This document shows, piece by piece, positions 5,333-60,948 of a DNA stretch of 64,000 bases. Position numbers and translations under genes: made by a program. The notes under the pieces are model-generated. The model was not told the origin of the DNA. It made no database searches and was given only the letters and a program-made list of their open reading frames with translations. How positions within the stretch are numbered: position 1 is the stretch's first letter; each line of letters begins with the position of its first letter. This DNA is from Polaromonas sp. (GTDB taxonomy: Bacteria; Pseudomonadota; Gammaproteobacteria; Burkholderiales; Burkholderiaceae_C): NCBI RefSeq assembly GCF_016185115.1, contig NZ_JACPOF010000029.1, forward strand, positions 62,530-126,529, written 5' to 3'.

Positions 5333-5363
5333 TTTAAACAGAGTAAAAACCCAAGGAGACACC

Positions 5364-13007: not shown

Positions 13008-13084
13008 TGGTAGGCGCGATTGGACTCGAACCAACGACCCCCACCATGTCAAGGTGGTGCTCTAACCAGCTGAGCTACGCGCCT
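13008..13084 (-). tRNA. tRNA-Val (anticodon GAC)
   Basis: The reverse complement reads AGGCGCG TA GCTC AGCTGGTTA GAGC A CCACC TTGACAT GGTGG GGGTC GTTGG TTCGAGT CCAAT CGCGCCT A CCA. Confidence 0.93.
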
Positions 13085-13982: not shown

Positions 13983-16250
13983 TTAGCGTCGCCTTGCTGA
14001 TCGCACACCCGGCACTTCAGCCACCACACCCAGAACCTGCTTGAGCCGACCGGACTGCGCAACCTCAACCGTAAACGTCATCCAGGCGGTGCCGCCGCGG
14101 TTATCTTTCACCGACTGCGTCTGCACGCCGATGACATTCATTTTTTCTTTGGCGAATACTTCTGAAATGTCGCGCAGCAAACCCTGGCGGTCTGACGCTT
14201 CAATCGATACATCGACGGGGTACACCGCGCCATCGGCAGACTTGGGCGCATTCCACTCCACCTCGATCACGCGATCGGGGCTGCCCGATGCCATGTTGCG
14301 AAAGTTGCTGCAGTCGCTGCGGTGAATGCTCACGCCCTTGCCTTTGGTGACAAAACCCAGGATCTCGTCAGGCGGCGCGGGCTTGCAGCACTTCGCAAGC
14401 TGGGTGAGCAGCGAGCCCATGCCGACCACCAGCACACCGCCGTTGCCCTTGGCGTTCTGGCTGGGTGCTCGTGCCTTCTTTGCAAGTACATAGTCGTCCT
14501 GCGTGAGCACGGGCTCCGGCGGCCTGAGCATGTTTTCAATCGTGCGAAGCGAAAGTTCATCCTTGCCGACGACCTCAAACAAATCGTCTGCCGCCTTGAA
14601 ACCCAGCTGCACCGCCAGGTCGTCGAGCTTCATCGACGTTTTGCCCTCACGCTGCAGCAGTTTTTCAACGGCTTCACGGCCACGTGCGACGGTCTGCGCC
14701 ATGTCCAGCGCGTTAAACCAGGCGCGCACTTTGGACTTGGCGCGGTGGCTGGTCAAAAACCCAAGCTCGGGATTCAGCCAGTCGCGCGAAGGCCCGCCAT
14801 CCTTGATGGTGATGATCTCCACCGTCTGGCCATTTTGCAGCGGCGTGTTGAGCGGCACCATCGCGCCGTCAATACGCGCACCGCGGCAGCGGTGGCCGAC
14901 GTTGGTGTGCACGCTGTAGGCGAAGTCCACAGCGGTTGCGCCCTGCGGCAATTCGACAATCGCGGCATCCGGTGTCAGCACATAGATGCGGTCTTCAAAC
15001 AGGCCCTTGTTGGCCTCGCGTGCCTTCGCGGCGGCAGGCCCTGAAAGATCACGCTCCCAGGCCAGCAACTGCCGCAGCACCGCAATCTTGGCATCGTATT
15101 CACTGCTGGCCGACACACCCGCATAACCCTTGTTGCCCGCCTCTTTATAAGCCCAGTGCGCGGCCACGCCGTGCTCGGCATGGTCATGCATGGCCTGGGT
15201 GCGGATCTGGATTTCAATCGCCCTGCCCGCTTCATCGCGCACCACGGTGTGCAGCGACTGGTAACCGTTTGACTTGGGCTTGGCGATGTAGTCGTCGAAC
15301 TCACCCAGCACCGGCGTGAAGCGCGAATGCACAAAGCCCAGCGCGGCATAACAGCCCTTGATGTCAGCGGCAATCACGCGCAATGCACGGATGTCAAATA
15401 CCTGGTCAAAGTCAAGCGACTTGCCGCGCATCTTCTTGACAATGCTGTAGATATGTTTGGGCCGGCCATAGACCAGCGCGGCGATGCCGTCCTTGTTGAG
15501 TTCGCGCTCAAGCTGGCTGCGCAGTGACTCCATGAACTGCTCGCGCTCAAGCCGCTTTTCATCAAGCAGGCGTGCGGTGTTTTTATAGGTCTCAGGCTCA
15601 AGAAAACGGAAGGCCAGGTCTTCCATCTCCCATTTCAGTTGCCAGATACCCAGGCGGCTGGCCAGTGGCGCAAACACGTGCAGCGACTCATAGGCCAGCG
15701 CAGCCGGCGCGGCCTGCCGGGTGGCAGCGTAATGCCTCAGGGTCTGCAGGCGTGATGCCAGGCGCAGCAGCACCACACGCAGGTCGCGTGAGAAAGCCAG
15801 CAGCATCTTGCGCACGTTTTCGGTCTGCACGGCCTGCACTTCCGGCTCGTGGGTGCCGGGAACAGCCGCACGCGCCTGCCGCTGCACATTGACCAGCTTG
15901 GTTGTTTCAACGGCCAGCGCTGCATAGTTCGCGCCAAAAGCCTTGGTGATGGATTCCAGCGGCCTGGCCAGGTGCTCGCACGAATGCACAAGGTAGATGG
16001 CTGCCTGCAGGGCCTCGGTACGGCCTATGGCCTTGAGGATGGCTGCAACAGCGTCGGCATGCGCGAGGATGTTTTCGCCGGTATCAAAGTGTTCGCCGGC
16101 AATCAGCGGTTCGGCAAAGGCGCGTGCCCGGGCCAGGGCATCGGGCTGGTCTGGCACTGCACCGGCCGTGGCAATGGCGATGGATGTCGGTACGTCGTCG
16201 GGATGTACAAAATCTTTGGGGCCGCCTGGCCCCTGCGCGTTGCTTTTCAT
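13983..16250 (-). CDS. relA: RelA/SpoT-family (p)ppGpp synthetase, RelA-type
   Basis: 755 aa with a synthetase domain (YQSLHTVV, RTQAMH), a TGS domain and an ACT domain. The N-terminal HD region lacks the canonical HD hydrolase residues, which points to RelA rather than SpoT. Confidence 0.88.
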   Translation of the reverse strand: MKSNAQGPGGPKDFVHPDDVPTSIAIATAGAVPDQPDALARARAFAEPLIAGEHFDTGENILAHADAVAAILKAIGRTEALQAAIYLVHSCEHLARPLESITKAFGANYAALAVETTKLVNVQRQARAAVPGTHEPEVQAVQTENVRKMLLAFSRDLRVVLLRLASRLQTLRHYAATRQAAPAALAYESLHVFAPLASRLGIWQLKWEMEDLAFRFLEPETYKNTARLLDEKRLEREQFMESLRSQLERELNKDGIAALVYGRPKHIYSIVKKMRGKSLDFDQVFDIRALRVIAADIKGCYAALGFVHSRFTPVLGEFDDYIAKPKSNGYQSLHTVVRDEAGRAIEIQIRTQAMHDHAEHGVAAHWAYKEAGNKGYAGVSASSEYDAKIAVLRQLLAWERDLSGPAAAKAREANKGLFEDRIYVLTPDAAIVELPQGATAVDFAYSVHTNVGHRCRGARIDGAMVPLNTPLQNGQTVEIITIKDGGPSRDWLNPELGFLTSHRAKSKVRAWFNALDMAQTVARGREAVEKLLQREGKTSMKLDDLAVQLGFKAADDLFEVVGKDELSLRTIENMLRPPEPVLTQDDYVLAKKARAPSQNAKGNGGVLVVGMGSLLTQLAKCCKPAPPDEILGFVTKGKGVSIHRSDCSNFRNMASGSPDRVIEVEWNAPKSADGAVYPVDVSIEASDRQGLLRDISEVFAKEKMNVIGVQTQSVKDNRGGTAWMTFTVEVAQSGRLKQVLGVVAEVPGVRSARRR

Positions 16251-17257: not shown

Positions 17258-17325
17258 CGGAGTGGCAGGTTTTATGCTTGCCCTTTCCTCAGGCCAACCA
17301 TCGTAAATCATCCGGAGAAACATCC

Positions 17326-18105
<780 letters not shown>

Positions 18106-18175
18106 ATTTCACGCAATTTGTGCTATTAAATTAATAGCTGCTCACGTGCGTATTTAAAGGGCTAGAGGCGTAAAA
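18106..18175 (-). repeat. tail-only copy (inverted orientation) of the AT-rich intergenic repeat family
   Basis: The reverse complement reads ..CTAGCCCTTTAAATACGCACGTGAGCAGCTATTAATTTAATAGCACAAATTGCGTGAAA. This aligns with the 3' module of the copies at 31193, 44274, 54291 and 59915. Confidence 0.7.
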
Positions 18176-18188
18176 CATCCTAAAAAAA

Positions 18189-18219
18189 GGTCGCAAAACC
18201 GGGTTTTGCGGCCTTTTTG
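18189..18219. terminator. bidirectional intrinsic terminator
   Basis: AAAAAAAGGTCGCAAAACC-GGG-GTTTTGCGGCCTTTTT lies between convergent bdhA (+) and the aldehyde dehydrogenase (-). Confidence 0.6.
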
Positions 18220-18321
18220 CCGATTCAGCCAGCTCTGGAATGGTTGCCAGACAATTAATGCGTCATGTATAAATCATTAAGCACTTAAGGCATCTTTTAT
18301 GACACCTTATTTAAACCATCT

Positions 18322-31009: not shown

Positions 31010-31192
31010 GCTTGTCTCCAGATTTTTATAAGAAAGGGCAGCACGGATGCTAGGGACACCGGCGTTGAGGCGACAGACCTCAAATATGACCAAAATATGC
31101 CTTTTAGGCATCACAAACCCTTGCAAAAGGTTGTTTTCATCTAAAAAGGTATGGGAAACCCTTAGAAGACAGGTTTATTGCCATCAATCACA

Positions 31193-31294
31193 CTTTTTGG
31201 CCCCAAAAAGGCATCAAAAGGCCTATTTTTAGCCTCGAATATGGCTATAGCCCTTTAAATACGGGCGTGAGCAGCTACTAAATACATAGCAAAA
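31193..31294 (+). repeat. tail-half copy of the AT-rich intergenic repeat family
   Basis: ..AAAAGGCCTATTTTTAGCC..GGCTATAGCCCTTTAAATACGGGCGTGAGCAGCTACTAAATACATAGCAAAAC aligns with the 3' halves of the copies at 44274, 54291 and 59915. Confidence 0.7.
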
Positions 31295-31367: not shown

Positions 31368-32378
31368 TCAGTCCGCCTTCGCGCCGGATGACTTGATGAT
31401 CCCGGCCCAGCGTGGGATTTCCAGCTGCAGGCGCTGCGTCACGCGCTCGGGGGCACCGCCTTCAGCCTCGGCACCGACTACCTGAAGTCGCGCGCGGGCT
31501 GTGGGGGTCTGCAGCGCCTTGTTCAGGGCTGCGTTGAGCTTCTGAACCACCTCAGGCGGCGTGCCGCGCGGCGCCATCAGCGATATCCACGAGCTCACGT
31601 CAAAGTCCTTGTAGCCCAGCTCTTTCAGGGTTGGCGTGTCGGGCAACAGCGTGGAGCGTTTCGGCGTGGTCACGGCCAGCGCGCGCAGCTTGCCGCTGCT
31701 GACCAGTGGTGAAGCCGTGGGCACGATGTCCATCATCACGTCTATCCGGCCAGCCATCAGTTCATTGAGAGCGGGCGCGCTGCCCTTGTACGGCACATGC
31801 AGCCACTTGATGCCGCTTTTCTCCTGGAAGTACTCACCCATCAGGTGGTTGATGCTGCCGCTGCCAGCCGAGCCCATGTTCAGCTGCTGCTTGGAAGCTT
31901 TTGACAGGCCCACCAGTTCGCTGACCTTGCCGGCCTTGACATTCGGGTTGACCACCAGCACGCCGGGGGTGCTCGCGTACCAGATCACCGGGTCAAAGCG
32001 CGTGAGCGGGTCGAAGTTGCGGTCCTTGTAGAGAGACGGGCTCATGGACAGCGGGCCAGCGGCACCTACGGCCAGCGTGTAGCCGTCAGGCGCCGAAGCG
32101 GCCACCTGTTCATAAGCCAGCAACCCGCCCGCGCCCGGGCGATTCTCGACAACAAAAGCCTGGTTGAGCGCTTCTGTCAGCGCGACGGCCATCTGCCGGC
32201 CAATCAGGTCGACAGCGCCACCGGCGGCAAAGGGCACGATCAGGCGCACCGGTTTGGCGGGGTAGGCCGCAGCCGTCTGGGCGCTGGAACCAGCGGCCAC
32301 ACAAAGCGCGCCGGTCAGCAGAGCCAGGGTTCGAATGGAAGAGAGAGCTGCGCGGCGGCCGTTGTTGAAGGGGTTCAT
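31368..32378 (-). CDS. Bug-family (TctC-like) substrate-binding protein
   Basis: ATG 32378 preceded by GGAGACAAC. Signal peptide ..SSAQTAAAYPAKPVRLIVPFAAGG. The 470 aa ORF-track version is an artefactual upstream extension. Confidence 0.9.
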   Translation of the reverse strand: MNPFNNGRRAALSSIRTLALLTGALCVAAGSSAQTAAAYPAKPVRLIVPFAAGGAVDLIGRQMAVALTEALNQAFVVENRPGAGGLLAYEQVAASAPDGYTLAVGAAGPLSMSPSLYKDRNFDPLTRFDPVIWYASTPGVLVVNPNVKAGKVSELVGLSKASKQQLNMGSAGSGSINHLMGEYFQEKSGIKWLHVPYKGSAPALNELMAGRIDVMMDIVPTASPLVSSGKLRALAVTTPKRSTLLPDTPTLKELGYKDFDVSSWISLMAPRGTPPEVVQKLNAALNKALQTPTARARLQVVGAEAEGGAPERVTQRLQLEIPRWAGIIKSSGAKAD

Positions 32379-32460
32379 GTTGTGTTGTCTCCAGTGCTTC
32401 AGCATTGACATTGGGAGGCCGGCACGAATGGGTGCGGCCCGAAAAGCAAAACAAATATTG

Positions 32461-32495
32461 TTCTTTTCAAAAGAATAACATTTCTTTAAAAGAAA
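32461..32495. promoter_or_regulatory. two tandem 7-1-7 palindromes (TTCTTTTCAAAAGAA and TTTCTTTAAAAGAAA), candidate IclR operator
   Basis: Read directly. The centres are 20 bp apart, and the pair is nested in an outer inverted repeat ATATTGTT...AACAATAT. Lies in the divergent Bug / IclR intergenic region. Confidence 0.45.
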
Positions 32496-32580
32496 CAATA
32501 TACTTTGTTGAAATTTTCTCGGGAAGGGGCCGGTCACCCGTTGCGCGACGTGACTGCACAGGGACACATGCACAATCGAA

Positions 32581-33444
32581 ATGCCCCCACCCTCCCGTAA
32601 ATCCATCCACATGCCACGGACCACCGCCGCAAAACAAAACAGCCCCCGCACCGCCGCCACACCGGCCGGCCCGGGCATTCTTGAGTCCGTCGGCATTGTT
32701 TTCGACATCCTCGACAAGCTGACCCAGGCCGGGCGGCCGCTGGGCGTGACTGAGCTTGCACAGCTCATGAACGAACCCAAGCCGCGTGTCTACCGGCACC
32801 TGGCCTCCATGCGCCAGCTAGGTGTGGTCGAACAGGAAGCGCTCAGTGAAAAGTACCGCCTGGGCGCGCGGCTGGTCGGCTACGGCGCAGCTGCCAACAA
32901 CCAGTTTGATTTGCGCGCGCTGGCCACCCCCTACCTCAACCGCCTGCGCGATGCGACCGGCGAGACCGCCGTGCTGTCAGTGGCCGACCAGGCCTCGGCG
33001 CTGGTGATTGCGTCTGCAGATTCCGCCAACCCGGTCTGCATATCCGTCAAGCCAGGCAACCGCGTGCCCGTGCACAGCTCTGCGCAGGGGCGCATCGTGC
33101 TGGCCTGGTGCGATGCCGCGACGCAAAGGAAACTGCTCAAACCCAAGCTGCAGCGCTTTACCGACAAATCGTCGGTTGACCCGCAGGAAGTACTTGAGCG
33201 CCTGGCACGCATTCGCGAGCGGCTTTATGAAGACGCCAACGGCGAAATGATTGAAGGCGTCAACGTGCTGGCCGCGCCCATCTTCTCGGCCGGCGATGAG
33301 CTGGTCGGCGTGATCGGCATCATCGGCGCCGCGCGCGACGTGCCCTCCCCGCCCGCCAGCAAGCTGCTCAAGGCCGTGCAGGGGACTGCAGCAGAAATCA
33401 GCGCCAGGCTGGGAAGCGACATCTACGAGCGGCCGCGCAAATAA
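32581..33444 (+). CDS. IclR-family transcriptional regulator
   Basis: HTH region (ILDKLTQAGRPLGVTELAQLMNEPKPRVYRHLASM) and an IclR effector domain. The alternative start at ATG 32611 is equally possible. Confidence 0.88.
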   Translation: MPPPSRKSIHMPRTTAAKQNSPRTAATPAGPGILESVGIVFDILDKLTQAGRPLGVTELAQLMNEPKPRVYRHLASMRQLGVVEQEALSEKYRLGARLVGYGAAANNQFDLRALATPYLNRLRDATGETAVLSVADQASALVIASADSANPVCISVKPGNRVPVHSSAQGRIVLAWCDAATQRKLLKPKLQRFTDKSSVDPQEVLERLARIRERLYEDANGEMIEGVNVLAAPIFSAGDELVGVIGIIGAARDVPSPPASKLLKAVQGTAAEISARLGSDIYERPRK

Positions 33445-34522: not shown

Positions 34523-34795
34523 GGTCTTCCCCATACTGGTCACGGTTGTCCCAGCACTTTCAAGAGCTAAAAAGACTTGCAGCCCAGTAGTGGCGGCCTT
34601 GTCTGAAGACATGCTCCTTCTGTGAACGCATTCCGGTCACTGGAAAACCCTCCCAAAGTACAGACAGGTTTTCGATATGCCCGGGCTATAGTGCAGGCAA
34701 TAACCGCAAAAACAGTTTGCGGGGTTTGACGGATTCTTTATGAACGTACAACCACGTACAAAAATATCGGCAAACCCGATACACATGCCGGTTCC

Positions 34796-34872
34796 AGGAG
34801 GATTTTCATGACCAGCTTATGTTGCAGTTGCCAGGTTAGGCCGTAGGTGTTGCGGCACACATTACGTTAGAC
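34796..34872 (+). promoter_or_regulatory. attI-like left junction: SD plus 12-codon mini-ORF overlapping four direct GTT-N4 repeats
   Basis: AGGAGG (34796-34801), 6 nt, then ATG 34808...TAG 34846 (MTSLCCSCQVRP). GTTGCAG at 34821, GTTAGGC at 34835, GTTGCGG at 34849 and GTTAGAC at 34866. The last is identical to the R' core of the middle attC. Confidence 0.35.
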
Positions 34873-34949
34873 CTCATGGAGAACAATCACACGCTGTAAC
34901 AGTGCCAGCGAAACTAGGTCATCCAAGATTAAGAACTGAGGGGTAGGAA

Positions 34950-35159
34950 ATGAGTCCAACAATAGCTCCACCGATACCAGAGAAATGCGAAAAATGCGCG
35001 CGTTGCGTTGAGGTAGCCATAACTAGTAACCCATTTGATTTCGATGCTCCGTCGTTCAACTCGGAATGCAACCTCGATGGTTGTCCGGTAAACGCGCGGA
35101 ATCAGCCAAACTCGGATGAACGGGTGAATGTCTATTTCGTGAATTGTGATGAGGCCTAA
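34950..35159 (+). CDS. cassette 1: small Cys-rich hypothetical protein (69 aa)
   Basis: ATG preceded by GAGGGG. Cys at positions 13, 16, 19, 40, 45 and 66. The stop TAA lies inside the degenerate inverse core GCCTAAT. An overlapping TTG-start ORF on the - strand is the alternative reading. Confidence 0.4.
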   Translation: MSPTIAPPIPEKCEKCARCVEVAITSNPFDFDAPSFNSECNLDGCPVNARNQPNSDERVNVYFVNCDEA

Positions 35160-35243
35160 TTTATCAATCGACAAGGACGCACAACAGCAGACTGTGGTTT
35201 TGCCGCAAGTGTTGGTTGTACGGTCATTTTTGCGTTAAACCGC
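35151..35243 (+). repeat. attC-like site 1 (degenerate): GCCTAAT ... GTTAAAC
   Basis: 87 bp from R'' to R', the same length as site 2. An ungapped alignment to site 2 gives 52/93 identities by hand count, with shared blocks TCGACA.GGA and GCCG...GTGTTG. Its own arm pairing is weak. Confidence 0.55.
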
Positions 35244-35244
35244 A

Positions 35245-35667
35245 ATGGCTATGGACCTTGCACTTTCTCAGGCCACTGCGAGTGCATTTCTGGAGGCATT
35301 TCGGCGCTGCGAGCCTGACGCCAATGACTCAAAGTACTTCATGGCATTCCCTGCATTGGTCTGCGCTGCCTTTTCTGCCGAGGTGGGGCTCAAGACAATT
35401 TTAAAAAGGGAGGGGAAAAGTGCGCATGGTCATGATCTTCTCTCTCTATTCATGCAGCTTTCAGACGAGAAAAAGATCGAAATCGCAGATGAAACCGGCA
35501 TTTCAATTGAAGACTTTGCAGCGCATCTAAACCACTCGAAAAAAGCGTTCTTGGAATGGCGCTATATCTATGAAGAGTCTGGCGAAAAAATGATTAGTCT
35601 TCTTTTCATTGGAAAATTCGCCGCAGCTGTCGAGGCGGCGGGCCTCAGAATGAAAAATGCGGTCTAA
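35245..35667 (+). CDS. cassette 2: HEPN-like domain protein (140 aa)
   Basis: All-helical-looking sequence with R55-x5-H61 (LKREGKSAHGHDLLSLF) and a downstream FLEWRYIYE, resembling HEPN signatures. The ATG starts 5 nt after the preceding GTTAAAC. The stop TAA lies inside GTCTAAC. Confidence 0.55.
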   Translation: MAMDLALSQATASAFLEAFRRCEPDANDSKYFMAFPALVCAAFSAEVGLKTILKREGKSAHGHDLLSLFMQLSDEKKIEIADETGISIEDFAAHLNHSKKAFLEWRYIYEESGEKMISLLFIGKFAAAVEAAGLRMKNAV

Positions 35668-35751
35668 CATGTTGCTCGACACGGAAACACAACTACACAC
35701 TCGTACTTCGCCGATCGTGTTGCGCTCCTGTCAGCCTCGATGTTAGACCGC
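35659..35751 (+). repeat. attC-like site 2: GTCTAAC ... GTTAGAC
   Basis: Perfect 12-bp terminal inverted repeat GCGGTCTAACAT / ATGTTAGACCGC. The arms continue to pair (GCT, GACA, GGA) with single bulged bases. 87 bp from R'' to R'. Confidence 0.75.
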
Positions 35752-35845
35752 ACATTCACCTCTGTGTCAACGCGAAGCTTGAAGACGACCAGCACCTGAA
35801 CTTGAATTTGAACTCAGCCCGTGCATACAAAATCGAATACCCGAC

Positions 35846-36490
35846 ATGACTCATACACAGACCGCGCGGCTTCTCACGTCCTTCATTCGGTATGCCGATG
35901 AAAAGGGTTCCATTGACAAACATAACGAGGAGTTCTTCGGAGAGATTGGCGCGCTGTACTCGAACGGGAATCAACTCAGCGAACATCTGTACGAATTGAG
36001 CGCGGCAGGCGTTGTGTACTATGAAGAAATTGGAGAAGACGGCTTCGCCCCGATCATCATGGCGGGCTGCACAAAGCAGACAGCAGCGCATCTTGCTAGT
36101 CTTCTCAAAGAGATCGATGCAGATGTAGAAGGTCTGCGACGGCGTATCAACGAAATACTGACTTTTGATCCCGATCGCCTGAAGTCAGAAATCAGCGTCG
36201 CAGAAGAGAAGCTTGGTGCTGCCCGCAGGGCCGCGGAGGAGAACGAGTTGCTCAGACCTCTTCTTCGGCAAATAACTGAGATAGAGAAGTATTTCCACGG
36301 CGTCTCCGCAGTGGCTGACAAATACGAAGATGTGTACAAAAACATCATCCGGCCGGTTCAACTTGAAGGAAAGTCAGGTGTCGAGGCTACCGTACGCTGG
36401 GCCATCATCAGTATCGTTGCATCGACAGCCATCTCAGTCGTGTTGGGAAATTGGAAGGAGCTTGCGCAGCTGTTTAGGAGCCTGATATGA
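35846..36490 (+). CDS. cassette 3: hypothetical protein, winged-helix-like N-terminus, coiled coil, C-terminal TM anchor (214 aa)
   Basis: Residues about 90-170 are heptad-like and charged. Residues about 184-202 (WAIISIVASTAISVVLGNW) are hydrophobic. No family recognised. No clear Shine-Dalgarno sequence. Confidence 0.65.
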   Translation: MTHTQTARLLTSFIRYADEKGSIDKHNEEFFGEIGALYSNGNQLSEHLYELSAAGVVYYEEIGEDGFAPIIMAGCTKQTAAHLASLLKEIDADVEGLRRRINEILTFDPDRLKSEISVAEEKLGAARRAAEENELLRPLLRQITEIEKYFHGVSAVADKYEDVYKNIIRPVQLEGKSGVEATVRWAIISIVASTAISVVLGNWKELAQLFRSLI

Positions 36491-44216: not shown

Positions 44217-44273
44217 GAGCAGCAGCACCCTCCCGGCACACCGGCCCCCCACCTGGCCAGATGGAGCAATTTT

Positions 44274-44458
44274 CGCGTACACGGCAAATTTTTAATGTAT
44301 GCGTTAAAAATTGGGTAAAAGTTAATATGGAAGTTAACTTTTGGGCTTGTAGCCGGGTTGGGCAGCCCAAAATGCCTCAAAAACCCCATTTTTTAGTGCC
44401 AAATCGGGCTGCAGGCCAATAGATACGCACGTGAGAAGCTATGAAAAACATAGCAATC
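44274..44458 (+). repeat. full copy A of the about 190 bp AT-rich structured intergenic repeat
   Basis: Contains the shared blocks GCAAATTTTTAATGTA, TTAACTTTTGG, ATACGCACGTGA and AGCTAT-N8-ATAGCA. Lies between convergent small ORFs. Confidence 0.8.
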
Positions 44459-44488: not shown

Positions 44489-44680
44489 TCACTGGAGCCG
44501 CTTCAGGGTTTTGGCAGCTGCGCTGGCCATATCGAGCTCATGAAGCTCTGACAACTGGGCGGTGATGGCTTCGCGCGCCAGCATTTCCTTATTCACGGCG
44601 TGATTGAGTCGCAGCGCGACCCATGCCAGGACGACCACCACCAGTGCGAAGGCACACCACAGAAAATTTATCAGGCCCAT
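44489..44680 (-). CDS. hypothetical small membrane-anchored protein (63 aa)
   Basis: N-terminal hydrophobic helix (INFLWCAFALVVVVLAWVAL) followed by an amphipathic helix. Confidence 0.35.
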   Translation of the reverse strand: MGLINFLWCAFALVVVVLAWVALRLNHAVNKEMLAREAITAQLSELHELDMASAAAKTLKRLQ

Positions 44681-54207: not shown

Positions 54208-54290
54208 ATACATGAGCGGCTTTATGAGCAAGGCACGCCTGGATGGCCTGTGCCAAGAAAACTGACCAAGGCGGCGCACTGCATAATTTT

Positions 54291-54485
54291 GACGTATACC
54301 GCAAATTTTTAATGTACGCGTTAAATTTACGCCAAAAACTCAACACGAAAGTTAACTTTTGGAGTTTGCAGCAGCCACCACGTCTAAAAAATGCCCCAAA
54401 TCCGCAAAAAGGCCGTTTTTAGCTGAAAAATAAGGCTGTGGCCCAATGGATACGCACGTGACCAGCTATGAAAATAGTAGCATTC
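54291..54485 (+). repeat. full copy B of the about 190 bp AT-rich structured intergenic repeat
   Basis: Shares the blocks GCAAATTTTTAATGTA, AAAGTTAACTTTTGG, GATACGCACGTGA and AGCTATGAAAATAGTAGCA. Lies between convergent ADH (+) and LysR (-). Confidence 0.8.
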
Positions 54486-54550: not shown

Positions 54551-55438
54551 TCAGGGGCTGGCATTGGCCCGCCGCAACATGTCTAGAAAATATTCTGCAG
54601 CCGGTGTCAGGGGCATGCCGAACCTTCGCACAAACACCCCGCGCGGCCCGGCAATGGGTTTGTTGATATTCAGGACGGTGACGCCGGGTGGGCCGCCCAA
54701 GTCCACCAGAGGCTTGGGAACCAGCGCCAGCAAATCTGTGTGCATCACCGAAAAAATAATCGTGTTGATGGTCGAGCAGCGGACGGCAACATCGGGCAAC
54801 GGCATGTTCAGCTGCAGGAAGGCTTGGGAAAGATTGTCGATCTGGTGGCCCGGCGTGGCGCTGACCCACTGCGCACTCCTGAGGTCATCCAGCGACTCCA
54901 CCTGCGACAGCGGATGGCCCTTGCGCACTATGACCACCAGATGGTTGTCGTACATGAACTCGCTCACCAATTCGCTGTCGATTGAGGTTTCGGGTTCCGG
55001 GCCGATATAGAAGTCGATATTGCCATCCTTCAGTCCCAGCTCTGCGGTGGGGTACTGCCCCTCGAACACCTTGAGCTGAACGCCAGGATAGCGTTTGAGA
55101 AAGGGCACCAGTGCACCTTCCAGCAGCCTGGCTTGCGCGCCACTCGACAGGCAGGCCACGACCGCACCCACGTTCTGGCCCTGCAGTTGCTTGATCTCGT
55201 CGCGGGCGCGCTGGAGTTCTGCCATCGCGGCACTGGCGCGCTGCACAAAACGTTCGCCCATGGGCGAGAGTTGCGCACCGCGGGCATGGCGGTCGAACAG
55301 CACCACGCCGAGGTCGCGCTCAAGCTCGCCGATGCTGCGCGAAATGGCAGGCTGTGTTATGTGCAGGTGGCGGGCGGCAGCCCGAAAGCTGCGTTTGTTG
55401 GCGACGGCGAGTACGTCTTTTAACTGGCTGAGTTTCAT
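54551..55438 (-). CDS. LysR-family transcriptional regulator
   Basis: HTH region MKLSQLKDVLAVANKRSFRAAARHLHITQPAISRSIGELE. The start was taken at ATG 55438. Confidence 0.9.
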   Translation of the reverse strand: MKLSQLKDVLAVANKRSFRAAARHLHITQPAISRSIGELERDLGVVLFDRHARGAQLSPMGERFVQRASAAMAELQRARDEIKQLQGQNVGAVVACLSSGAQARLLEGALVPFLKRYPGVQLKVFEGQYPTAELGLKDGNIDFYIGPEPETSIDSELVSEFMYDNHLVVIVRKGHPLSQVESLDDLRSAQWVSATPGHQIDNLSQAFLQLNMPLPDVAVRCSTINTIIFSVMHTDLLALVPKPLVDLGGPPGVTVLNINKPIAGPRGVFVRRFGMPLTPAAEYFLDMLRRANASP

Positions 55439-55660
55439 GGTGGAGGCCCGTTCAAGACTGCGCTGGGGCAGCCACATCTGCTCAAATTTCAGCGATGCCG
55501 ATCTTGCATCACCGTGACAATTTTGCCATCTTTCGGATTCACTCGGAAATTTCTAGTATTGCTGCAGCTGTGTGTGCTTCCCGTTTTGGCCACCACAGGC
55601 TGTACGCGCGCTCCCCGACATCAGGGTGCGCCACACAACTAAAAGTGACAGGAGACAAGA

Positions 55661-56488
55661 ATGCAAATAGCCTTTATCGGCCTTGGGGTTCAGGGCAAGG
55701 GCCTGGCCAAAAACGCCGTAGCGGCCGGACATGAGGTCACCGTATTCGACCCCCGGCCTGAACCTTGTGCAGAACTTGCCGCCCTGGGTGCCACCGTTGC
55801 CGGCTCGAACGCCGACGCAGGCAAGAGCGCTCGGGTCATCCAGGTGTGTGTGCTCAACGATGCGCAGGTCGAGTCGGTCATTGCCGGCCCTGCCGGGCTA
55901 CTGTTCAGCGCACAGCCCGGCACGATCATCGCCGTACACAGCACCATACGCCCGGCCACCATCGTGGCCATGGCCGCCAAAGGGCTTGAAAAAGGCGTCA
56001 TCGTCATCGACGCCCCCGTCAGTGGAGGCGCTGCGGGTGCCGAGGCGAAGCGCATGTCCTTTATGGTAGGCGGATCGCCTGAGGCGCTGGACGTCTGCCG
56101 CCCTGTTTTTCAATCATCCGGTGACCGCATCGCACATATCGGTGAGCTGGGCAGCGCACTGCGCGCCAAGCTGGCGCACCAGCTCATCATCTCCGTCAAT
56201 TTGCTTGCCGCCTATGAAGGCATGAAGCTCGGCGTGATGGCCGGCGTACCCGCCGAACTCCTGGAGCAGGTGGTGCGTGACGGGGCTGCACAAAGTTATG
56301 TCACCCATCACTGGTCAACCCTGGTGCTCGGGCCGCAGGCACCTGCGGTTTTTTACAAAGACCTGCAGCTGTGCATAGAGCTCGCCAATTCGCTCGGCCT
56401 CAGCGTGCCCGGCGCAGCACTGGCGCAACAACTCATGGAGGTCATCCTGGCTGACCACCGTATACCCAAGGAGCAAAAGCAATCATGA
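55661..56488 (+). CDS. NAD(P)-dependent beta-hydroxyacid dehydrogenase family oxidoreductase
   Basis: MQIAFIGLGVQGKGLAKN Rossmann start. About 275 aa. AGGAGA Shine-Dalgarno sequence. ATGA overlap with the next gene. Confidence 0.82.
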   Translation: MQIAFIGLGVQGKGLAKNAVAAGHEVTVFDPRPEPCAELAALGATVAGSNADAGKSARVIQVCVLNDAQVESVIAGPAGLLFSAQPGTIIAVHSTIRPATIVAMAAKGLEKGVIVIDAPVSGGAAGAEAKRMSFMVGGSPEALDVCRPVFQSSGDRIAHIGELGSALRAKLAHQLIISVNLLAAYEGMKLGVMAGVPAELLEQVVRDGAAQSYVTHHWSTLVLGPQAPAVFYKDLQLCIELANSLGLSVPGAALAQQLMEVILADHRIPKEQKQS

Positions 56489-57888
56489 ACCGGCGCATTC
56501 ACATTAACCTAGATGTCAGCGGCAAGCCTGGGGGTGCCGACAACGGCCGCTTTGTGGCGCGTGATGCGGTTGACTCCGCCAATGGCGAAATTGCCCGCAG
56601 GATCTACGTCGACGAAGACATCTACAAGCAGGAAATCCAGCATGTCTTCAAGCGCTCATGGCTGTACATCGGACATGAAAGCCAGATCCCCAAACCGGGC
56701 GATTTTGTGCTGTCGCGTATGGGCGATGAATCCGTCATCCTGACGCGCGACGCAAAAGGCGTCGTGCATGTGTTTCTCAACTCATGCCGGCACCGGGGCA
56801 TGAAGGTCTGCCGTTACGACGAAGGCAACGCCCGCAACTTTGTCTGCCCCTACCATGGCTGGACATTCAAGACGAGCGGCGAACTCATGCTTGTGCCGGG
56901 CTACGACGAAGCCTACAAGGCCGCCCCGTTCGACAAGGCCAAGTGGGGCCTCGTCGAAGTGGCCCAGATCGCCAACCTGCGCGGCACCATCTGGGCCACG
57001 TGGGACGCTAGTGCGCCGTCCTTCAAGGACTACATGGGCGACATGTATTTTTCGATGAACCTCGCGCTTTCGCCATGGAACGGCAGCGACGATGAAATCG
57101 AACTGCTGGGCAGCCCGCAGAAATGGGTGATTCCTTCGAACTGGAAGATCGTTGCCGAGAACTTTGCTGGCGACATGGCCCACACCATCAGCCATGCATC
57201 CGTCGACAAGGTCGGCATCGGTCCCAACAACAAGGACGGCATGACCGAAGGCCGGCGTGACGACCCAGGCGAACTGGCCCTGTGCACAACGCCGCAAGGC
57301 CATGGCGTGCTTTACGGTATTTCGCCCGAGGGACAGGAGCCACGCGACTATGCCGTCTCGCCGCCGACGGCAGCCTACTTCCTTGAAAACTGGCGCGAGC
57401 GCCAGAAACTCCAGGGTAACAAGGGCCGGCTGACACCAGTCGTCGGCACCATATTCCCCAACATGTCTTTTCACGGCCAACAGCCAAGAACCATACTCGT
57501 GTCACACCCCAACGGACCCAACCACACCGAAATGTGGCGGGTCTATTTTGTCGACAAGAAAGCGCCACCAGAGGTCAAGGCGTTTCTGCGCCGCTACTAC
57601 ACCCGCTACTCGGGCCCGGCCGGCATGACCGAGCAGGACGACATGGAAAACTGGAACTACGCTACAGCCAGTTGCCGGGGTAGCGTCGCGGAAGAGTATC
57701 CCTTCAACTACAAGGCGGGCCTACACGTCGGTGGTACGCACCCCATGATTCCCGGTGTGATCACGCAGCACCCGATCACCAGCGAGCAAAACGTGCGGTC
57801 GCTCTACCACCGCTGGGCAGAGATGATGGACGCCGAAAGCTGGGACTCATTGCGCGCACCCACTGCAGCCGACGGAGGCCGGCAATGA
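56485..57888 (+). CDS. aromatic ring-hydroxylating dioxygenase, Rieske alpha subunit
   Basis: The Rieske motif is CRHRGMKVC...CPYHGW. The catalytic domain has a His-rich region. Confidence 0.9.
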   Translation: MNRRIHINLDVSGKPGGADNGRFVARDAVDSANGEIARRIYVDEDIYKQEIQHVFKRSWLYIGHESQIPKPGDFVLSRMGDESVILTRDAKGVVHVFLNSCRHRGMKVCRYDEGNARNFVCPYHGWTFKTSGELMLVPGYDEAYKAAPFDKAKWGLVEVAQIANLRGTIWATWDASAPSFKDYMGDMYFSMNLALSPWNGSDDEIELLGSPQKWVIPSNWKIVAENFAGDMAHTISHASVDKVGIGPNNKDGMTEGRRDDPGELALCTTPQGHGVLYGISPEGQEPRDYAVSPPTAAYFLENWRERQKLQGNKGRLTPVVGTIFPNMSFHGQQPRTILVSHPNGPNHTEMWRVYFVDKKAPPEVKAFLRRYYTRYSGPAGMTEQDDMENWNYATASCRGSVAEEYPFNYKAGLHVGGTHPMIPGVITQHPITSEQNVRSLYHRWAEMMDAESWDSLRAPTAADGGRQ

Positions 57889-58424
57889 GCAGTCACGACA
57901 AGTCTGCCTATCGGGACCTGGTCCGCGACGTTGAAGAGTTTTTGTACCTTGAAGCAGACATGCTTGACGAGCGCCGCTACAAGGAATGGCTGGACCTGCT
58001 CAGCGAAGACATCCGCTACCGCATACCGCTACGCAAAAACATGAAGTATTCAGACAGCCACCTCGACATCAGCGGCGATGACGACATGTCATGGATGGAC
58101 GATGACAGGGAAACCCTGGTCAAGCGTGTGAAGCAGATCATGACCGGCATTCACTGGGCCGAGGAGCCGCAGTCGCGCGTCTCGCACCTGGTCACCAATG
58201 TGCGCATCATCAATCCGGCTGAAGCGCTGGCAGGCAGCGCAGACATCCTGGTGTCCAGCCGCGTGCTAGTTCACCGCAACAGGCTCGAAGGCGAGACCGA
58301 CTACTTCATCGGCCGGCGCAACGACATCGTGCGGCGGAACGGCGATGGATTCCTGCTGACGGGCCGTACGGTCATTCTTGACCAGGCGACCCTGCTGGCC
58401 AAAAACCTCACGATCTTTATTTGA
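57885..58424 (+). CDS. aromatic ring-hydroxylating dioxygenase, beta subunit
   Basis: 179 aa with an NTF2-like fold signature (EEFLYLEADMLDERRYKEWLDLL). Translationally coupled to the alpha subunit. Confidence 0.9.
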   Translation: MSSHDKSAYRDLVRDVEEFLYLEADMLDERRYKEWLDLLSEDIRYRIPLRKNMKYSDSHLDISGDDDMSWMDDDRETLVKRVKQIMTGIHWAEEPQSRVSHLVTNVRIINPAEALAGSADILVSSRVLVHRNRLEGETDYFIGRRNDIVRRNGDGFLLTGRTVILDQATLLAKNLTIFI

Positions 58425-58590
58425 TCACCGGTGGGCATCGGTGCTTGACCTATGGCTTTTTTACTCTCGCCAACTACTCGTCGTGCAGAGACTGAAATTT
58501 ACGGACTGGTAACAGCCTGCACCTCAACTTCGCCAGCGATTCCAGCATCCCCTTTCTAACTACAAGAGTTTTTTACTCACAGGAGTCAAC

Positions 58591-59763
58591 ATGCAAAAAC
58601 GATTTTTCCTCAACACCCTGGCCCTTGCGATTTTGGGTACCGGCATTGCAGGCAATGCACTCGCGCAGGACAACAAGTTCAAGGTCGGCCTGGTGCTGTC
58701 CATGACCGGATCGTTTGCCACGCTCGGTAAACAAACCGAAGCGGGTGCCCGCCTTTATATGGCTCAACACGGCGACACCGTTGCCGGCAAAAAGATCGAG
58801 CTGATCGTCAAGGATGACACCAGCGTGCCGGATATTGCCAAACGCATCGCACAGGAGCTCGTAGTCAACGACAAGGTCAACGTACTTGCAGGCTTTTTGC
58901 TGACGCCGGCTGCCCTGGCGGCCGCACCGATCGCCACGCAGGCCAAAACGCCACTCATCACAATGGCCGGTGCCAGCTCCAGCGTGACGCAGGCATCACC
59001 CTACGTGCTGCGTACCAGCTTCACCGTAGCCCAAACCGCAGTAGGCATCGCCGACTGGGCACCCAAAAACGGCATCAAAAAAGTTGTCACGCTGGTGTCT
59101 GACTTCACGCCCGGCCTGGACGTTGAAAAATTCTTTGGCGACCGCTACACCTTCAACGGCGGCAAGGTACTCGACCAGTTGCGCGTACCCCTGCGCAACC
59201 CCGACTTCGCGCCCTTCCTGCAGCGTGTGCGCGACCTGGCACCTGATGCAGTGTTCGTATTCGTACCGGCAGGCGCCAACGCCGCGCTGATGAAGCAGTT
59301 TGCTGAACGCGGCCTCGACAAGGCCGGGATCAAGCTGATAGGCACAGGCGACATCACTGATGACGACATCCTCAATGCTACTGGCGACGTGGCACTGGGT
59401 GTGGTGACTTCGCACCAGTATTCAGCCTCGCACAACTCCGCGCTAAACAAGAAGTTCGTTGCAGAGTTCAAAAAGGCCAACAACGGTTTGCGCCCCAACT
59501 TCCTGGCTGTAGCGGGTTACGACGGCATGCGCGTGATTTACGAAGCAGCCAAAGCTGCAAAGGGCGGCAACGGCGACGCACTTCTGGCAGCCATGAAAGG
59601 TCAGGTATTTGAAAGCCCGCGCGGACCGATTTTTATCGACGCCCAGACACGCGAACTGGTGCAGAACATCTACATCCGCAAGGTCGAACGGGTCAACGGC
59701 GAGCTATATAACACCGAATTTGAAACCATCAAGGACGTGAAGGACCCCGGCAAGATTCGCTAG
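58591..59763 (+). CDS. ABC-transporter periplasmic substrate-binding protein (LivK / branched-chain amino-acid-binding family)
   Basis: Signal peptide ..GNALAQDNKFKVGLVLSMTGSFATLGKQ. 390 aa. No permease or ATPase genes are adjacent. Confidence 0.88.
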   Translation: MQKRFFLNTLALAILGTGIAGNALAQDNKFKVGLVLSMTGSFATLGKQTEAGARLYMAQHGDTVAGKKIELIVKDDTSVPDIAKRIAQELVVNDKVNVLAGFLLTPAALAAAPIATQAKTPLITMAGASSSVTQASPYVLRTSFTVAQTAVGIADWAPKNGIKKVVTLVSDFTPGLDVEKFFGDRYTFNGGKVLDQLRVPLRNPDFAPFLQRVRDLAPDAVFVFVPAGANAALMKQFAERGLDKAGIKLIGTGDITDDDILNATGDVALGVVTSHQYSASHNSALNKKFVAEFKKANNGLRPNFLAVAGYDGMRVIYEAAKAAKGGNGDALLAAMKGQVFESPRGPIFIDAQTRELVQNIYIRKVERVNGELYNTEFETIKDVKDPGKIR

Positions 59764-59914
59764 GTCGCAAGACAGACAGCGAACCCGCCGGGCATGGCTT
59801 CATGGCTTGGTAGCGGGTTCGTATGCTCCGATGCATGCCGGATAGGCCGTACAGCACGCCAAGGCTTGGTCGACGCTGCCAGAATTGCAAAACGCAGCGG
59901 CGGGGATCAAAATT

Positions 59915-60109
59915 TACCGTATACCGCAAATTTTTAATGTACACGTTAAAAATTTATCGAAAGTTAATATGAAGCTTAACTTTTGGCTTGCGGCAGCCGC
60001 CAGCTCAAAAAATGGTCTGAAAAACGGCTTAAAAGGCCATTTTTACCTGCCAAATCAGGCTGCAGCCCAATAGATACGCACGTGAGCAGCTATTAATAAC
60101 ATAGCATTC
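59915..60109 (+). repeat. full copy C of the about 190 bp AT-rich structured intergenic repeat
   Basis: Shares the blocks listed above. It contains hairpins AAATTTTTAA/TTAAAAATTT, AAAGTTAA/TTAACTTT, AAAAATGGTC/GGCCATTTTT and GCTAT/ATAGC. Lies between the convergent SBP gene (+) and TetR gene (-). Confidence 0.8.
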
Positions 60110-60189: not shown

Positions 60190-60948
60190 TTAAACCCCGG
60201 CAACCCTCTTCTTGTGTTCCAGCTCAAGAGCCTGCAGCATCAGCCGCAGGCCCATCGAATAAGCGTCTGATGCATTGAGGCTCACAAGGCTTTCACGCAC
60301 AAAATGCGTTCCGGGAAACTCTTTCGGGTCAAGCTGTGCGAGCTTCTCGTTGAGGAATTCCCCGTGCTGCCCCGGCCAGCGCCGCGCCACCGTTGAGTGC
60401 GCGAATGAGGTCACCAGTTCCACGACAAGGTGGGCATAGGCGGCGGTGTGCATCGCATCAAATCCGGCCTGACGCATGGTGCTGGAGAATTTTTCAAAAA
60501 AGAGGATGCCGTAATCGGTTTCGCCAGCCTGCACGTCCTGCACCATGCGGTAGCGGTTGTGGGTAGAGACATAAGAGGCAATGCCGGGATAGCGCAGCAA
60601 GGCGCGGTAAAAGGCATTGGCCACGTTTTCAATGTTTTCCAGCCAGTGCGGCTGTTCACGCGGCCAGTTTTCAATCACTTCACGCCAGAAGGCGTTCATG
60701 ACGCCTGACGTCAAGGGATCGCGGCCGCCGAGGTAGTAGTGAATGAGGCCAGGCGTCACGCCCAGCTCCCGTGCGACCAGCACGACCGAGAGGTCCGCCA
60801 GCGGAACCGTCTTTGTCAGCTGCAATGACAGGGAAAGAACCGTCGCGCGGTCCAGTGCGCCGGTGGTGGCGCCGGCCGGGCGACCGGGACGTCGGCCGGT
60901 CTTGCGGGCTGCTGCTGTTTTTGCGGTGGCTGTATTCGCGGAAGACAT
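60190..60948 (-). CDS. TetR/AcrR-family transcriptional regulator
   Basis: N-terminal HTH region (..ATVLSLSLQLTKTVPLADLSVVLVARELGVTPGLIHYYL) and a helical C-terminal domain. Confidence 0.88.
   Translation of the reverse strand: MSSANTATAKTAAARKTGRRPGRPAGATTGALDRATVLSLSLQLTKTVPLADLSVVLVARELGVTPGLIHYYLGGRDPLTSGVMNAFWREVIENWPREQPHWLENIENVANAFYRALLRYPGIASYVSTHNRYRMVQDVQAGETDYGILFFEKFSSTMRQAGFDAMHTAAYAHLVVELVTSFAHSTVARRWPGQHGEFLNEKLAQLDPKEFPGTHFVRESLVSLNASDAYSMGLRLMLQALELEHKKRVAGV

What the first reader, a model, noticed from the sequence alone, without database searches (positions are those of the whole stretch)
59915..60109. Family of structured, AT-rich, about 190 bp non-coding repeats (five copies in 64 kb)
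Three full copies run in the same orientation at 44274-44458, 54291-54485 and 59915-60109. Two tail-only copies lie at 31193-31294 (same orientation) and 18106-18175 (inverted).

They share long identical blocks:
- GCAAATTTTTAATGTA
- TTAACTTTTGG
- ATACGCACGTGA, which contains the CACGTG palindrome
- AGCTAT-N8-ATAGCA

Each full copy is a chain of hairpins. In copy C these are AAATTTTTAA/TTAAAAATTT, AAAGTTAA/TTAACTTT, AAAAATGGTC/GGCCATTTTT and GCTAT/ATAGC.

Four of the five copies sit between convergently transcribed genes. The repeats are far more AT-rich than the host DNA. The frames of the ORFs that cross them are broken by indels between copies, so they are not coding.

Candidate roles are an sRNA or terminator-associated element family, a protein-binding (nucleoid or replication) site, or a decayed MITE. 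I cannot place them in a described repeat class from memory.
Basis: seen in the sequence. Interest (0 to 1): 0.65.

Follow-up and report, generated by a model that had tools for sequence, protein, structure and literature searches.

The report
REP-like mosaic repeats after gene ends
The five AT-rich repeats are real copies of an apparently undescribed, high-copy, non-coding repeat family of Comamonadaceae bacteria that sits just past gene ends, resembling the REP/BIME "junk-or-punctuation" repeats of E. coli rather than a small-RNA gene.

Summary
There are exactly five copies in the window, 39-41% G+C against 61% for the window. They share an invariant 20-mer expected 0.03 times by chance.

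The anatomy needs re-reading.
- It stands at roughly 130 copy-equivalents in the source metagenome.
- Diverged versions occur across Comamonadaceae: Polaromonas, Acidovorax, Simplicispira, Giesbergeria, Rhodoferax and Comamonas.
- In several of those genera it is a 12-15 bp palindrome preceded by (A/G)TAG, which is REP-like.
- In the window lineage the palindrome has decayed into a lineage-specific box.

About a tenth of the units are embedded in a ~190 bp mosaic. The mosaic adds an A/T-flanked hairpin and arrays of AT-rich palindromes.

Read on the opposite strand, all five copies begin 15-83 nt after the stop codon of a co-oriented ORF.

Tests that came back negative:
- no Rfam match and no promoter-like site;
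- no stem covariation;
- no orientation bias in sister genera;
- no target-site duplication or transposase; no RAYT in the roughly 3.5 Mb of fetched sequence around copies (no whole genome was searched).

Best reading: a REP/BIME-like non-autonomous interspersed repeat with an unknown mobilising agent. A terminator or insulator effect is only partly supported. It is a new member of a known kind, of moderate interest.

The parts
59910..60106 (+). Read on the - strand it starts 83 nt after the stop of the TetR-family gene 60190-60948(-).
   Evidence: The boundary after 60106 is sharp in metagenome contig depth.
60044..60108 (+). Copy C core unit: GGCTGCAGCC, the box AATAGATACGCACGTGAGC and the small hairpin AGCTAT-N7-ATAGCA. 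This is the family-defining module.
   Evidence: nhmmer E=2.6e-16. Summed depth is about 2400 against 18 for the host contig.
60008..60044 (.). Copy C middle hairpin with an A-tract before and a T-tract after (AAAAATGGTCT ... AGGCCATTTTT). It is weakly terminator-like in both directions.
   Evidence: Inverted repeat I5. The terminator scan hits 60026-60038 on the + strand.
59909..59983 (.). Copy C distal array of AT-rich palindromes: AAAATTTACCGTA/TACCGCAAATTTT, AAATTTTTAATGT/ACGTTAAAAATTT and AAAGTTAA/TTAACTTT.
   Evidence: Inverted repeats I3, I4 and I6. Such units are found only next to cores of this lineage. Depth indicates about 14 copy-equivalents.
54285..54485 (+). Copy B, type-I mosaic, with its core at 54420-54485. 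On the - strand it starts 68 nt after the stop of the LysR-family gene 54551-55477(-).
44268..44458 (+). Copy A, type-I mosaic, with its core at 44392-44458. On the - strand it starts 33 nt after the stop of a 63-aa ORF, 44489-44680(-), whose status as a gene is uncertain.
31171..31294 (+). Copy D, with its core at 31229-31293 plus the A/T-flanked hairpin region. Its box is ATACGGGCGTGA, which keeps the GCCC/GGGC pairing. On the - strand it starts 76 nt after the stop of the TctC-family gene 31368-32780(-), behind that gene's own terminator-like hairpin at 31324-31309.
18119..18300 (-). Copy E, type-II mosaic. The core is at 18119-18181 and a strong hairpin with a T run is at 18192-18210. The distal module TTAATGATTTATACATGACGCATTAA differs from type I. 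On the + strand the core starts 15 nt after the stop of the short-chain dehydrogenase gene 17278-18105(+).
   Evidence: (191-nt match to L004).

Best explanation
The five repeats belong to a high-copy, non-coding, REP/BIME-like interspersed repeat family native to Comamonadaceae.

**The unit**
- The unit that defines and probably propagates the family is the roughly 55-65 nt core.
- Read in the direction away from the nearest stop codon it is (T/C)GCTAT-N7-(A/G)TAGCTGCT-box-GGGCT.NAGCC-GATTT.
- In Acidovorax, Simplicispira and Giesbergeria the part after (A/G)TAG is a 12-15 bp palindromic hairpin followed by a T run.
- In the window's Polaromonas-like lineage that palindrome has decayed into a lineage-specific box (CACGTGCGTAT).
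- About one core in ten is embedded in a larger mosaic: an A/T-flanked hairpin plus a variable number of AT-rich palindromes.

**How it behaves**
- Copies accumulate in the short spacers just downstream of genes, where insertion is tolerated.
- Their likeness within a genome is kept up by continuing copying from master sequences or by gene conversion, not by selection on an RNA fold.

**Likely effect on the host (inferred, not shown)**
- AT-rich palindromic DNA between convergent genes could act as a bidirectional transcription stop or insulator, and as a binding platform for nucleoid proteins.

**Shown here:** repetition, copy number, boundaries, gene-end location, taxonomic spread, lack of coding, lack of promoter and lack of covariation.

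**Inferred:** mobility, the mobilising enzyme (unknown; by analogy a hairpin-recognising transposase such as a RAYT) and any host function.
For: **Family and copy number**
- There are exactly five copies in the window with an invariant 20-mer.
- Depth over the core is about 2400 against 18 for the host contig, and 101 contigs are laid in metagenome X1. The head reaches only about 250 and the middle is unique.
- The boundary after ATAGCA is sharp, with 16 different flanks.
- Joints show other copies in which head and core are joined differently or inverted, which indicates a mosaic.

**Spread across Comamonadaceae**
- Diverged cores occur in many Comamonadaceae loci.
- A copy sits directly after the stop of the conserved dehydrogenase gene in many genera, in either orientation, and is absent in others.
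- 93 of 104 such units adjoin at least one gene 3' end, 11 lie between divergent starts, and orientation is 61 against 61.
- Acidovorax-type units fold strongly (z -1.8 to -5.7, eight of nine below -2.8), with arms that differ between genomes yet stay complementary.
- Inverted doublets of about 210-350 bp occur in Polaromonas L110.

**Turnover**
- Paralogs within a genome are more alike than orthologs between species (0.78 against 0.57-0.70).

**Window context**
- All five window copies start 15-83 nt after a co-oriented stop when read on the opposite strand.
Against: - No mobilising enzyme was found. phmmer with E. coli RayT finds nothing in about 2.7 Mb plus 0.89 Mb of sequence around copies.
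- No transposase family was found among the window proteins that were scanned.
- No target-site duplications are visible, and no clean filled/empty pair in near-identical strains was obtained. The one orthologue fetched (L178) breaks synteny exactly at copy C.
- The window-type core is not a palindrome and does not fold. It therefore fails the structural definition of a REP.
- Invariance of the 20-mer inside copies that are otherwise only 71-77% identical could instead reflect selection for a host factor's binding site.
- Only 2 of the 5 copies carry an internal hairpin that passes a simple terminator scan.
Confidence: 0.6

Rival explanations
1. This is a family of host-selected DNA binding sites. 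The invariant core box would be recognised by a lineage-specific DNA-binding protein, such as a nucleoid-associated, termination or chromosome-organising factor. Copies would be kept by selection, and the AT-rich palindromes would provide bent DNA.
For: - The 20-mer is identical in 4 of 5 window copies and in all 8 true copies found in other genomes (those were, however, retrieved by exact match to this 20-mer), while the rest of the element is 65-77% identical with indels.
- Each lineage has its own box flavour, even at orthologous sites.
- GGCTGCAGCC and CACGTG are dyad-symmetric, and their stems are too short for hairpins.
- The distal palindromes are spaced about 20-21 bp apart with phased A/T tracts.
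Against: - The orthologous copy in the closest relative (L094) has drifted from the consensus box. Not every copy is constrained.
- No candidate protein was identified.
- The same pattern is produced by copying from master sequences.
- Units occur in either orientation, in variable number and inside coding sequence.
Confidence: 0.15
2. This is a classical TIR-type MITE from a DDE insertion sequence. The core would be the terminal inverted repeat (TG...CA ends), and the window copies would be single-ended remnants or chimeric elements.
For: - Polaromonas L110 carries three elements of about 210-350 bp bounded by inverted cores of about 48-65 nt that end in TGCTA.../...TAGCA.
- Both ends of the window copies have sharp boundaries.
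Against: - The window copies have no second, inverted core.
- No target-site duplication is seen at any inspected copy.
- No parent element or transposase was found, and the plasmid collection gives no match.
- Single cores far outnumber doublets.
Confidence: 0.1
3. This is a cis-acting RNA element or sRNA family. It would be transcribed as part of 3' UTRs, or from its own promoter, and would act through the hairpins as a terminator, an mRNA stabiliser or an RNA-binding-protein site.
For: - Read on the opposite strand, all five copies begin 15-83 nt after a co-oriented stop codon.
- Copy E and its orthologues contain a strong hairpin followed by a T run.
- Full copy C folds somewhat better than shuffles on the + strand (z -2.8).
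Against: - There is no Rfam match and no promoter-like site.
- Covariation does not exceed the shuffles, and the core does not fold.
- There is no strand bias in sister genera.
- Copy D lies downstream of another terminator-like hairpin.
- Copies A and B lack a scan-positive terminator.
- No RNA data exist for this organism.
Confidence: 0.08

Closest known systems
REP / BIME elements of Enterobacteria and Pseudomonas (REPIN-RAYT systems)
   Same: - Short extragenic unit present on the order of 100 times per genome.
- Placed just after genes and between convergent genes.
- In sister genera, an (A/G)TAG tag followed by a 12-15 bp palindrome.
- Occasional inverted doublets.
- Combination with other motifs into mosaics.
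- Genome-specific 'master' sequence and persistence at orthologous sites.
   Different: - The tag is mostly ATAG rather than GTAG.
- An extra upstream GCTAT pairs with the tag.
- In the window lineage the palindrome is lost, so the unit no longer folds.
- No RAYT gene was found in any sequence available here.
- The elements are AT-rich, whereas REPs are usually GC-rich.
BOX elements of Streptococcus pneumoniae (boxA-boxB(n)-boxC)
   Same: - Modular architecture: a constant module joined to a variable number of short palindromic modules.
- About 100-200 bp long, non-coding and intergenic.
- Mobilising agent unknown.
   Different: There is no sequence relationship. The host phylum is different. 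BOX elements have two constant end modules, whereas here only one end is constant.
Correia/NEMIS (Neisseria) and ERIC (Enterobacteria) MITE-like repeats
   Same: Size of 100-200 bp, intergenic location with possible terminator effects, and many copies.
   Different: Those elements have clear terminal inverted repeats, and Correia also has a TA target duplication. The window copies have neither.
BRE, Betaproteobacterial repeat element (Hot et al. 2011, PMC3110155)
   Same: It is reported in Polaromonas and other Comamonadaceae, is intergenic and has no known function.
   Different: BRE is about 69% G+C and often tandem. Its sequence (TTTTTTTGGCCGCGGGCCGCCCAAGGCAAAAAAGCCCCC...) shares nothing with this family.

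Membership tests
REP / REPIN-RAYT | Unit is a 20-40 nt imperfect palindrome able to form a hairpin | tested here: not met
   Window-type cores fold no better than shuffles (z +0.55 and -0.16). Homologous units in Acidovorax, Simplicispira and Giesbergeria do form 12-15 bp hairpins (z -1.8 to -5.7, eight of nine below -2.8).
REP / REPIN-RAYT | Conserved 5' tetranucleotide tag (GTAG or CGTC) next to the palindrome | tested here: inconclusive
   (A/G)TAG directly precedes the palindrome or box. TAG is 90-100% conserved (AG invariant) in 49 aligned units, and the first base is mostly A and sometimes G.
REP / REPIN-RAYT | High copy number (over about 100 per genome), extragenic | tested here: met
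   The depth ratio is about 2400/18 and 101 contigs are laid. This is a metagenome, so it is an estimate. All five window copies are intergenic. In sister genera 97 of 104 units with both neighbours in view (111 including those inside coding sequence) are extragenic.
REP / REPIN-RAYT | A RAYT (Y1 HUH transposase) gene flanked by the repeats in the same genome | tested here: inconclusive
   phmmer and tblastn with E. coli RayT find nothing in about 3.6 Mb of loci around copies or in the window. No complete genome could be searched.
REP / REPIN-RAYT | Inverted doublets (REPINs) as the replicating form | tested here: not met
   No inverted second core lies in or near any window copy. Doublets do exist in Polaromonas L110.
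TIR-type MITE | Terminal inverted repeats and target-site duplication; related autonomous IS | tested here: not met
   The window copies have no TIRs. No duplication is seen at the flanks. No parent element was found.
Structured RNA family (Rfam) / sRNA | Match to a curated model, or conserved structure with compensatory changes; own promoter | tested here: not met
   Rfam returns only a tRNA elsewhere and a chance hit at E=2.5. Covariation does not exceed the shuffles. There are no promoter-like sites.
Intrinsic (Rho-independent) terminator | GC-rich hairpin followed by a T run, placed after a gene end | tested here: inconclusive
   The scan is positive inside C (weak, + strand) and E (strong, - strand). 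It is negative in A and B. In D the positive hairpin lies outside the element.
BRE (Hot et al. 2011) | Sequence similarity to the published about 90 bp GC-rich consensus | tested here: not met
   The published sequences were read and show no resemblance.

The most novel reading that the evidence does not exclude
The core is the recognition sequence of a vertically inherited, REPIN-like replicator system in Betaproteobacteria, whose partner enzyme is not a known RAYT.

- The lineage-specific box would be the co-evolving 'address'. This would explain why paralogs stay alike while orthologs diverge.
- In the window lineage the system would have switched from hairpin recognition to sequence recognition.
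- Units have even been absorbed in frame into coding genes.
Probability: 0.15. Interest if true: 0.6.

Novelty: new member of a known kind. Interest (0 to 1): 0.35.

Why it matters
- **Assembly and annotation.** Short interspersed repeats shape bacterial genome assembly, and contigs of this organism break at these units. They mislead ORF callers. They can also set transcript ends between convergent genes.
- **A gap in what is described.** I found no description of a REP-like family for Comamonadaceae. This is a large group of environmental and plant-associated Betaproteobacteria, in which RAYT-REP systems are reported as essentially absent (Nunvar 2010, PMC2817692).
- **If a partner enzyme exists.** The family would extend the REPIN-type 'resident replicator' idea to a new clade.
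- **If none exists.** It is a useful case of long-lived repeats maintained by conversion or by host use.
- **Practical uses.** The core is a lineage marker, because the box flavour tracks phylogeny, and a good probe for strain typing.

Tried and rejected
1. **Metagenome scan.** Scanning metagenome contigs for the 20-mer gave four hits, all chance matches inside coding sequence. The only metagenome scan is now spent.
2. **Orthologous loci for B and C.** A search through the 467-aa protein at 56485-57888 found an accessory gene with at most 68% identity and no synteny. That scan was effectively wasted.
3. **Exact-protein look-ups.** Two window proteins are not on record. The TetR protein gave only the same strain (L175-L177) and one relative (L178) in which synteny breaks exactly at copy C, so there is no clean empty site.
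4. **RNA evidence.** There are no RNA runs for this organism.
5. **BRE repeat (Hot 2011).** Considered because it is reported in Polaromonas; rejected after reading its sequences.
6. **RAYT search.** tblastn and phmmer with E. coli RayT gave nothing significant. A weak tblastn hit in L110 lies inside an acyl-CoA synthetase gene.
7. **Sequence databases.** Rfam (gathering and E-value modes) and plasmid BLAST gave nothing.
8. **Other ideas.** dif/Xer-like site, integron attC, sigma-54 or ECF promoter, IHF site and group II intron remnant were considered by eye from the sequence. None fits, and none was pursued.
9. **Long outer stem GCGGCAGCC/GGCTGCAGC in copy C** (I7). It is not supported across copies.
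10. **Weak HMM hits.** Several proved to be signal-peptide coding sequence (ATAGCTGCTAGCGC encodes I-A-A-S-A) and were left out of the alignment.

Full report
**1. The observation**

- MAFFT, BLAST and nhmmer give A 44268-44458, B 54285-54485 and C 59910-60109 on the + strand.
- They give D 31171-31294 (+) and E 18119-18246 (-).
- A profile of the conserved part, run without filters, finds exactly these five in 64 kb.
- The 20-mer ATACGCACGTGA-NN-AGCTAT occurs five times against 0.03 expected.
- The copies are 39-41% G+C in a 60.6% window.
- A, B and C are only 71-77% identical overall, so the shared blocks are islands.
- The small hairpin spacer is 7 nt, not 8.
- A, B, C and E lie between convergent ORFs. 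D lies between two genes on the minus strand.
- The neighbours are ordinary metabolic, transport and regulator genes, and none of those scanned against Pfam/NCBIfam is a transposase.

**2. Where the window comes from**

- The stretch is held by groundwater, watershed and sediment metagenomes only. No RNA runs exist.
- RelA (13983-16250) is 96% identical to two 'Pseudomonadota' MAGs (JAZKHN01, JAZKCB01) and 80-86% identical to Polaromonas species.
- The organism is therefore a Polaromonas-like member of Comamonadaceae.

**3.

- Exact-match scans with the 20-mer found only eight true copies in species-representative genomes. They are in JAZKHN01, JAZKDR01 and two Polaromonas genomes. None was found in JGI metagenomes.
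- In those copies the last 60 nt or so are constant, but the rest varies in content and length.
- A profile of the tail then detected many diverged copies in Comamonadaceae loci fetched around RelA. These include Polaromonas, Acidovorax, Simplicispira, Giesbergeria, Hylemonella and others.
- I laid metagenome contigs on copy C. Summed depth is about 2400 over 60060-60091, about 250 over the head palindrome, and 18 (the host contig's own depth) over the middle.
- 101 contigs are laid in X1, and 16 different flanks start right after 60106.
- The roughly 55 nt core therefore stands at about 10^2 copy-equivalents and the type-I head at about 14. The 190 bp arrangement is a minority mosaic.
- Joints in the same output show other copies in which head and core are joined with 74-107 nt missing, or in opposite orientation.
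- Copy E has a different distal module. That module recurs in the relative's orthologous site (L094, L095) and at a second locus (L004).
- The AT-rich units of the type TTTTAACGTATACGTTAAAA are seen only beside cores of this lineage.

**4. Orientation and gene ends**

- E: 15 nt after the dehydrogenase gene.
- A: 33 nt after a 63-aa ORF of uncertain status.
- B: 68 nt after the LysR-family gene.
- D: 76 nt after the TctC-family gene.
- C: 83 nt after the TetR-family gene.

The dehydrogenase gene next to RelA is conserved across the family.
- In many genera a unit sits directly after its stop. It is usually co-oriented, sometimes inverted, once a doublet, and in many Polaromonas species absent, with the convergent gene abutting.
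- There the unit reads stop-(T)GCTAT-N7-ATAGCTGCTAGCGCTTA-loop-TAAGCGCTAGCAGCC-ATTTTT. That is an (A/G)TAG tag plus a 12-15 bp palindrome and a T run.

- Of the 104 units with both neighbours in view, 93 adjoin at least one gene 3' end and 11 lie between divergent starts. A further 7 lie in ORFs.
- Orientation relative to the adjoining gene end is 61 against 61.

**5. Structure**

- Acidovorax-type units fold far better than shuffles as single strands (z -1.8 to -5.7, eight of nine below -2.8). Their arms differ between genomes while staying complementary.
- The window-type and Polaromonas-type cores do not fold better than shuffles (z +0.55, -0.16, -0.41).
- RNAalifold on 13 tails predicts only the 5 bp GCTAT/ATAGC hairpin, with no compensatory change.
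- On a gapless alignment of 49 units, neither the small hairpin nor the inner GCCC/GGGC stem nor the outer GCTG/CAGC stem exceeds the shuffle controls on any measure.
- Whole copy C folds moderately better than shuffles on the + strand (z -2.8) and not on the - strand (z -1.5). This reflects the AT-rich palindromes.
- Simple scans find no sigma-70-like promoter in any copy.
- Terminator-like hairpins are found only in C (weak) and E (strong). In D the hit is a separate hairpin between the gene and the core.
- Rfam gives nothing.

**6. Evolution**

- Orthologous copies exist in species whose RelA is only about 82% identical. One site lies upstream of a dadA-like gene and another at about 18.7 kb of the loci.
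- Each genome nevertheless has its own box flavour: window/JAZKHN CACGTGCGTAT, L110 TTGCGCCCGAAT, L122/L117 AGCGCATATAT.
- One L110 copy is 0.78 identical on average to its paralogs (maximum 0.89) but 0.57-0.70 to its orthologs.
- This points to turnover from master copies or to gene conversion.
- The orthologue of E in the nearest relative has drifted from the consensus box. Individual copies are therefore not all under strict constraint.
- Polaromonas L110 has three elements bounded by inverted cores. No target duplication is visible.

**7. Search for a mobilising gene and for prior descriptions**

- E. coli RayT, taken from NC_000913.3, finds no relative in the window, in about 2.7 Mb of loci, or in 0.89 Mb around 120 Acidovorax-type units. 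No complete genome could be searched.
- The plasmid collection has no match.
- The literature search returned only BRE, a GC-rich betaproteobacterial repeat whose sequences are unrelated.
- REP/RAYT surveys do not mention these genera. [quoted passage not shown]
- No paper on MITEs or REPs of Comamonadaceae was found.

**8. Verdict**

- The finding is a real repeat family, but it is not a structured RNA gene.
- It is best filed as a REP/BIME-like, non-autonomous interspersed repeat of Comamonadaceae.
- In this lineage the core has degenerated and the core is built into mosaics.
- The mobilising agent is unknown, and a terminator or insulator role is only partly supported.
- It fails the strict REP definition in the window, having neither a palindrome nor a RAYT. 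I therefore describe it as working like a REP/BIME rather than as a proven member.

Noticed in passing
L102:7297-7365 (also the orthologous stretches of L096, L097, L101, L112, L116): A stretch inside an LhgO-like FAD oxidoreductase gene matches the repeat core (E=1e-11), with 13 of 13 bases identical to copy E at ACGCCTCTAGCCC. It reads through in frame with no length change relative to orthologues. It uses AT-rich codons (GCT ATT TAT TTG ATA GCG) that are unusual for these genomes.
   Followed up: partly
L121:6930-6997: A second core-like stretch (E=3e-12) lies inside what looks like a peptide-ABC-transporter ATPase gene, again in frame. I did not check it against orthologues.
   Followed up: no
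L110:5452-5709 (-), next to the doublet at 5221-5437: An 85-aa ORF resembles, by eye, the N-terminus of an IS110-family transposase (IGIDLSKNVFAVH...GMEAC). It stops exactly where an inverted doublet of the repeat begins. From my own knowledge, IS110-family elements are known to target REPs elsewhere.
   Followed up: no
L110:4100-8200: This is an unusually dense cluster: seven core copies, including three inverted doublets, in about 4 kb of a Polaromonas MAG. Small ORFs lie between them, one of them a 124-aa protein with a predicted signal peptide.
   Followed up: partly
L121:1400-1560: Next to a core copy lies a different, GC-rich tandem repeat (CTCGCCTCCCCCAGCGGGGGAGGGAATTTATAT, three or more units). 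It was not analysed.
   Followed up: no
window 34600-36400: A roughly 1.9 kb low-GC island (48-51% against 61%) has no high-GC3 gene. Its ORFs at 35245-35667 and 35846-36490 have no significant Pfam match. It sits between a DHO_dh-like gene and an IclR-family regulator.
   Followed up: partly
window 55600-59800 against L178: The four-gene block upstream of copy C is absent at the corresponding place in the nearest relative fetched. There the TetR gene abuts a phytase-like gene with a 26 nt spacer. Copy C therefore sits at a synteny breakpoint.
   Followed up: partly
L224:6352-6389, L234:3970-4008, L244:7317-7355: In some Acidovorax genomes the unit is a fully symmetric palindrome, ATAGCTGCTAGCGCTTA-N4/5-TAAGCGCTAGCAGCTAT, with the tag on both arms.
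   Followed up: no
window 13011-13084 (-): This is a tRNA gene, the only Rfam gathering-threshold hit in the window.
   Followed up: no
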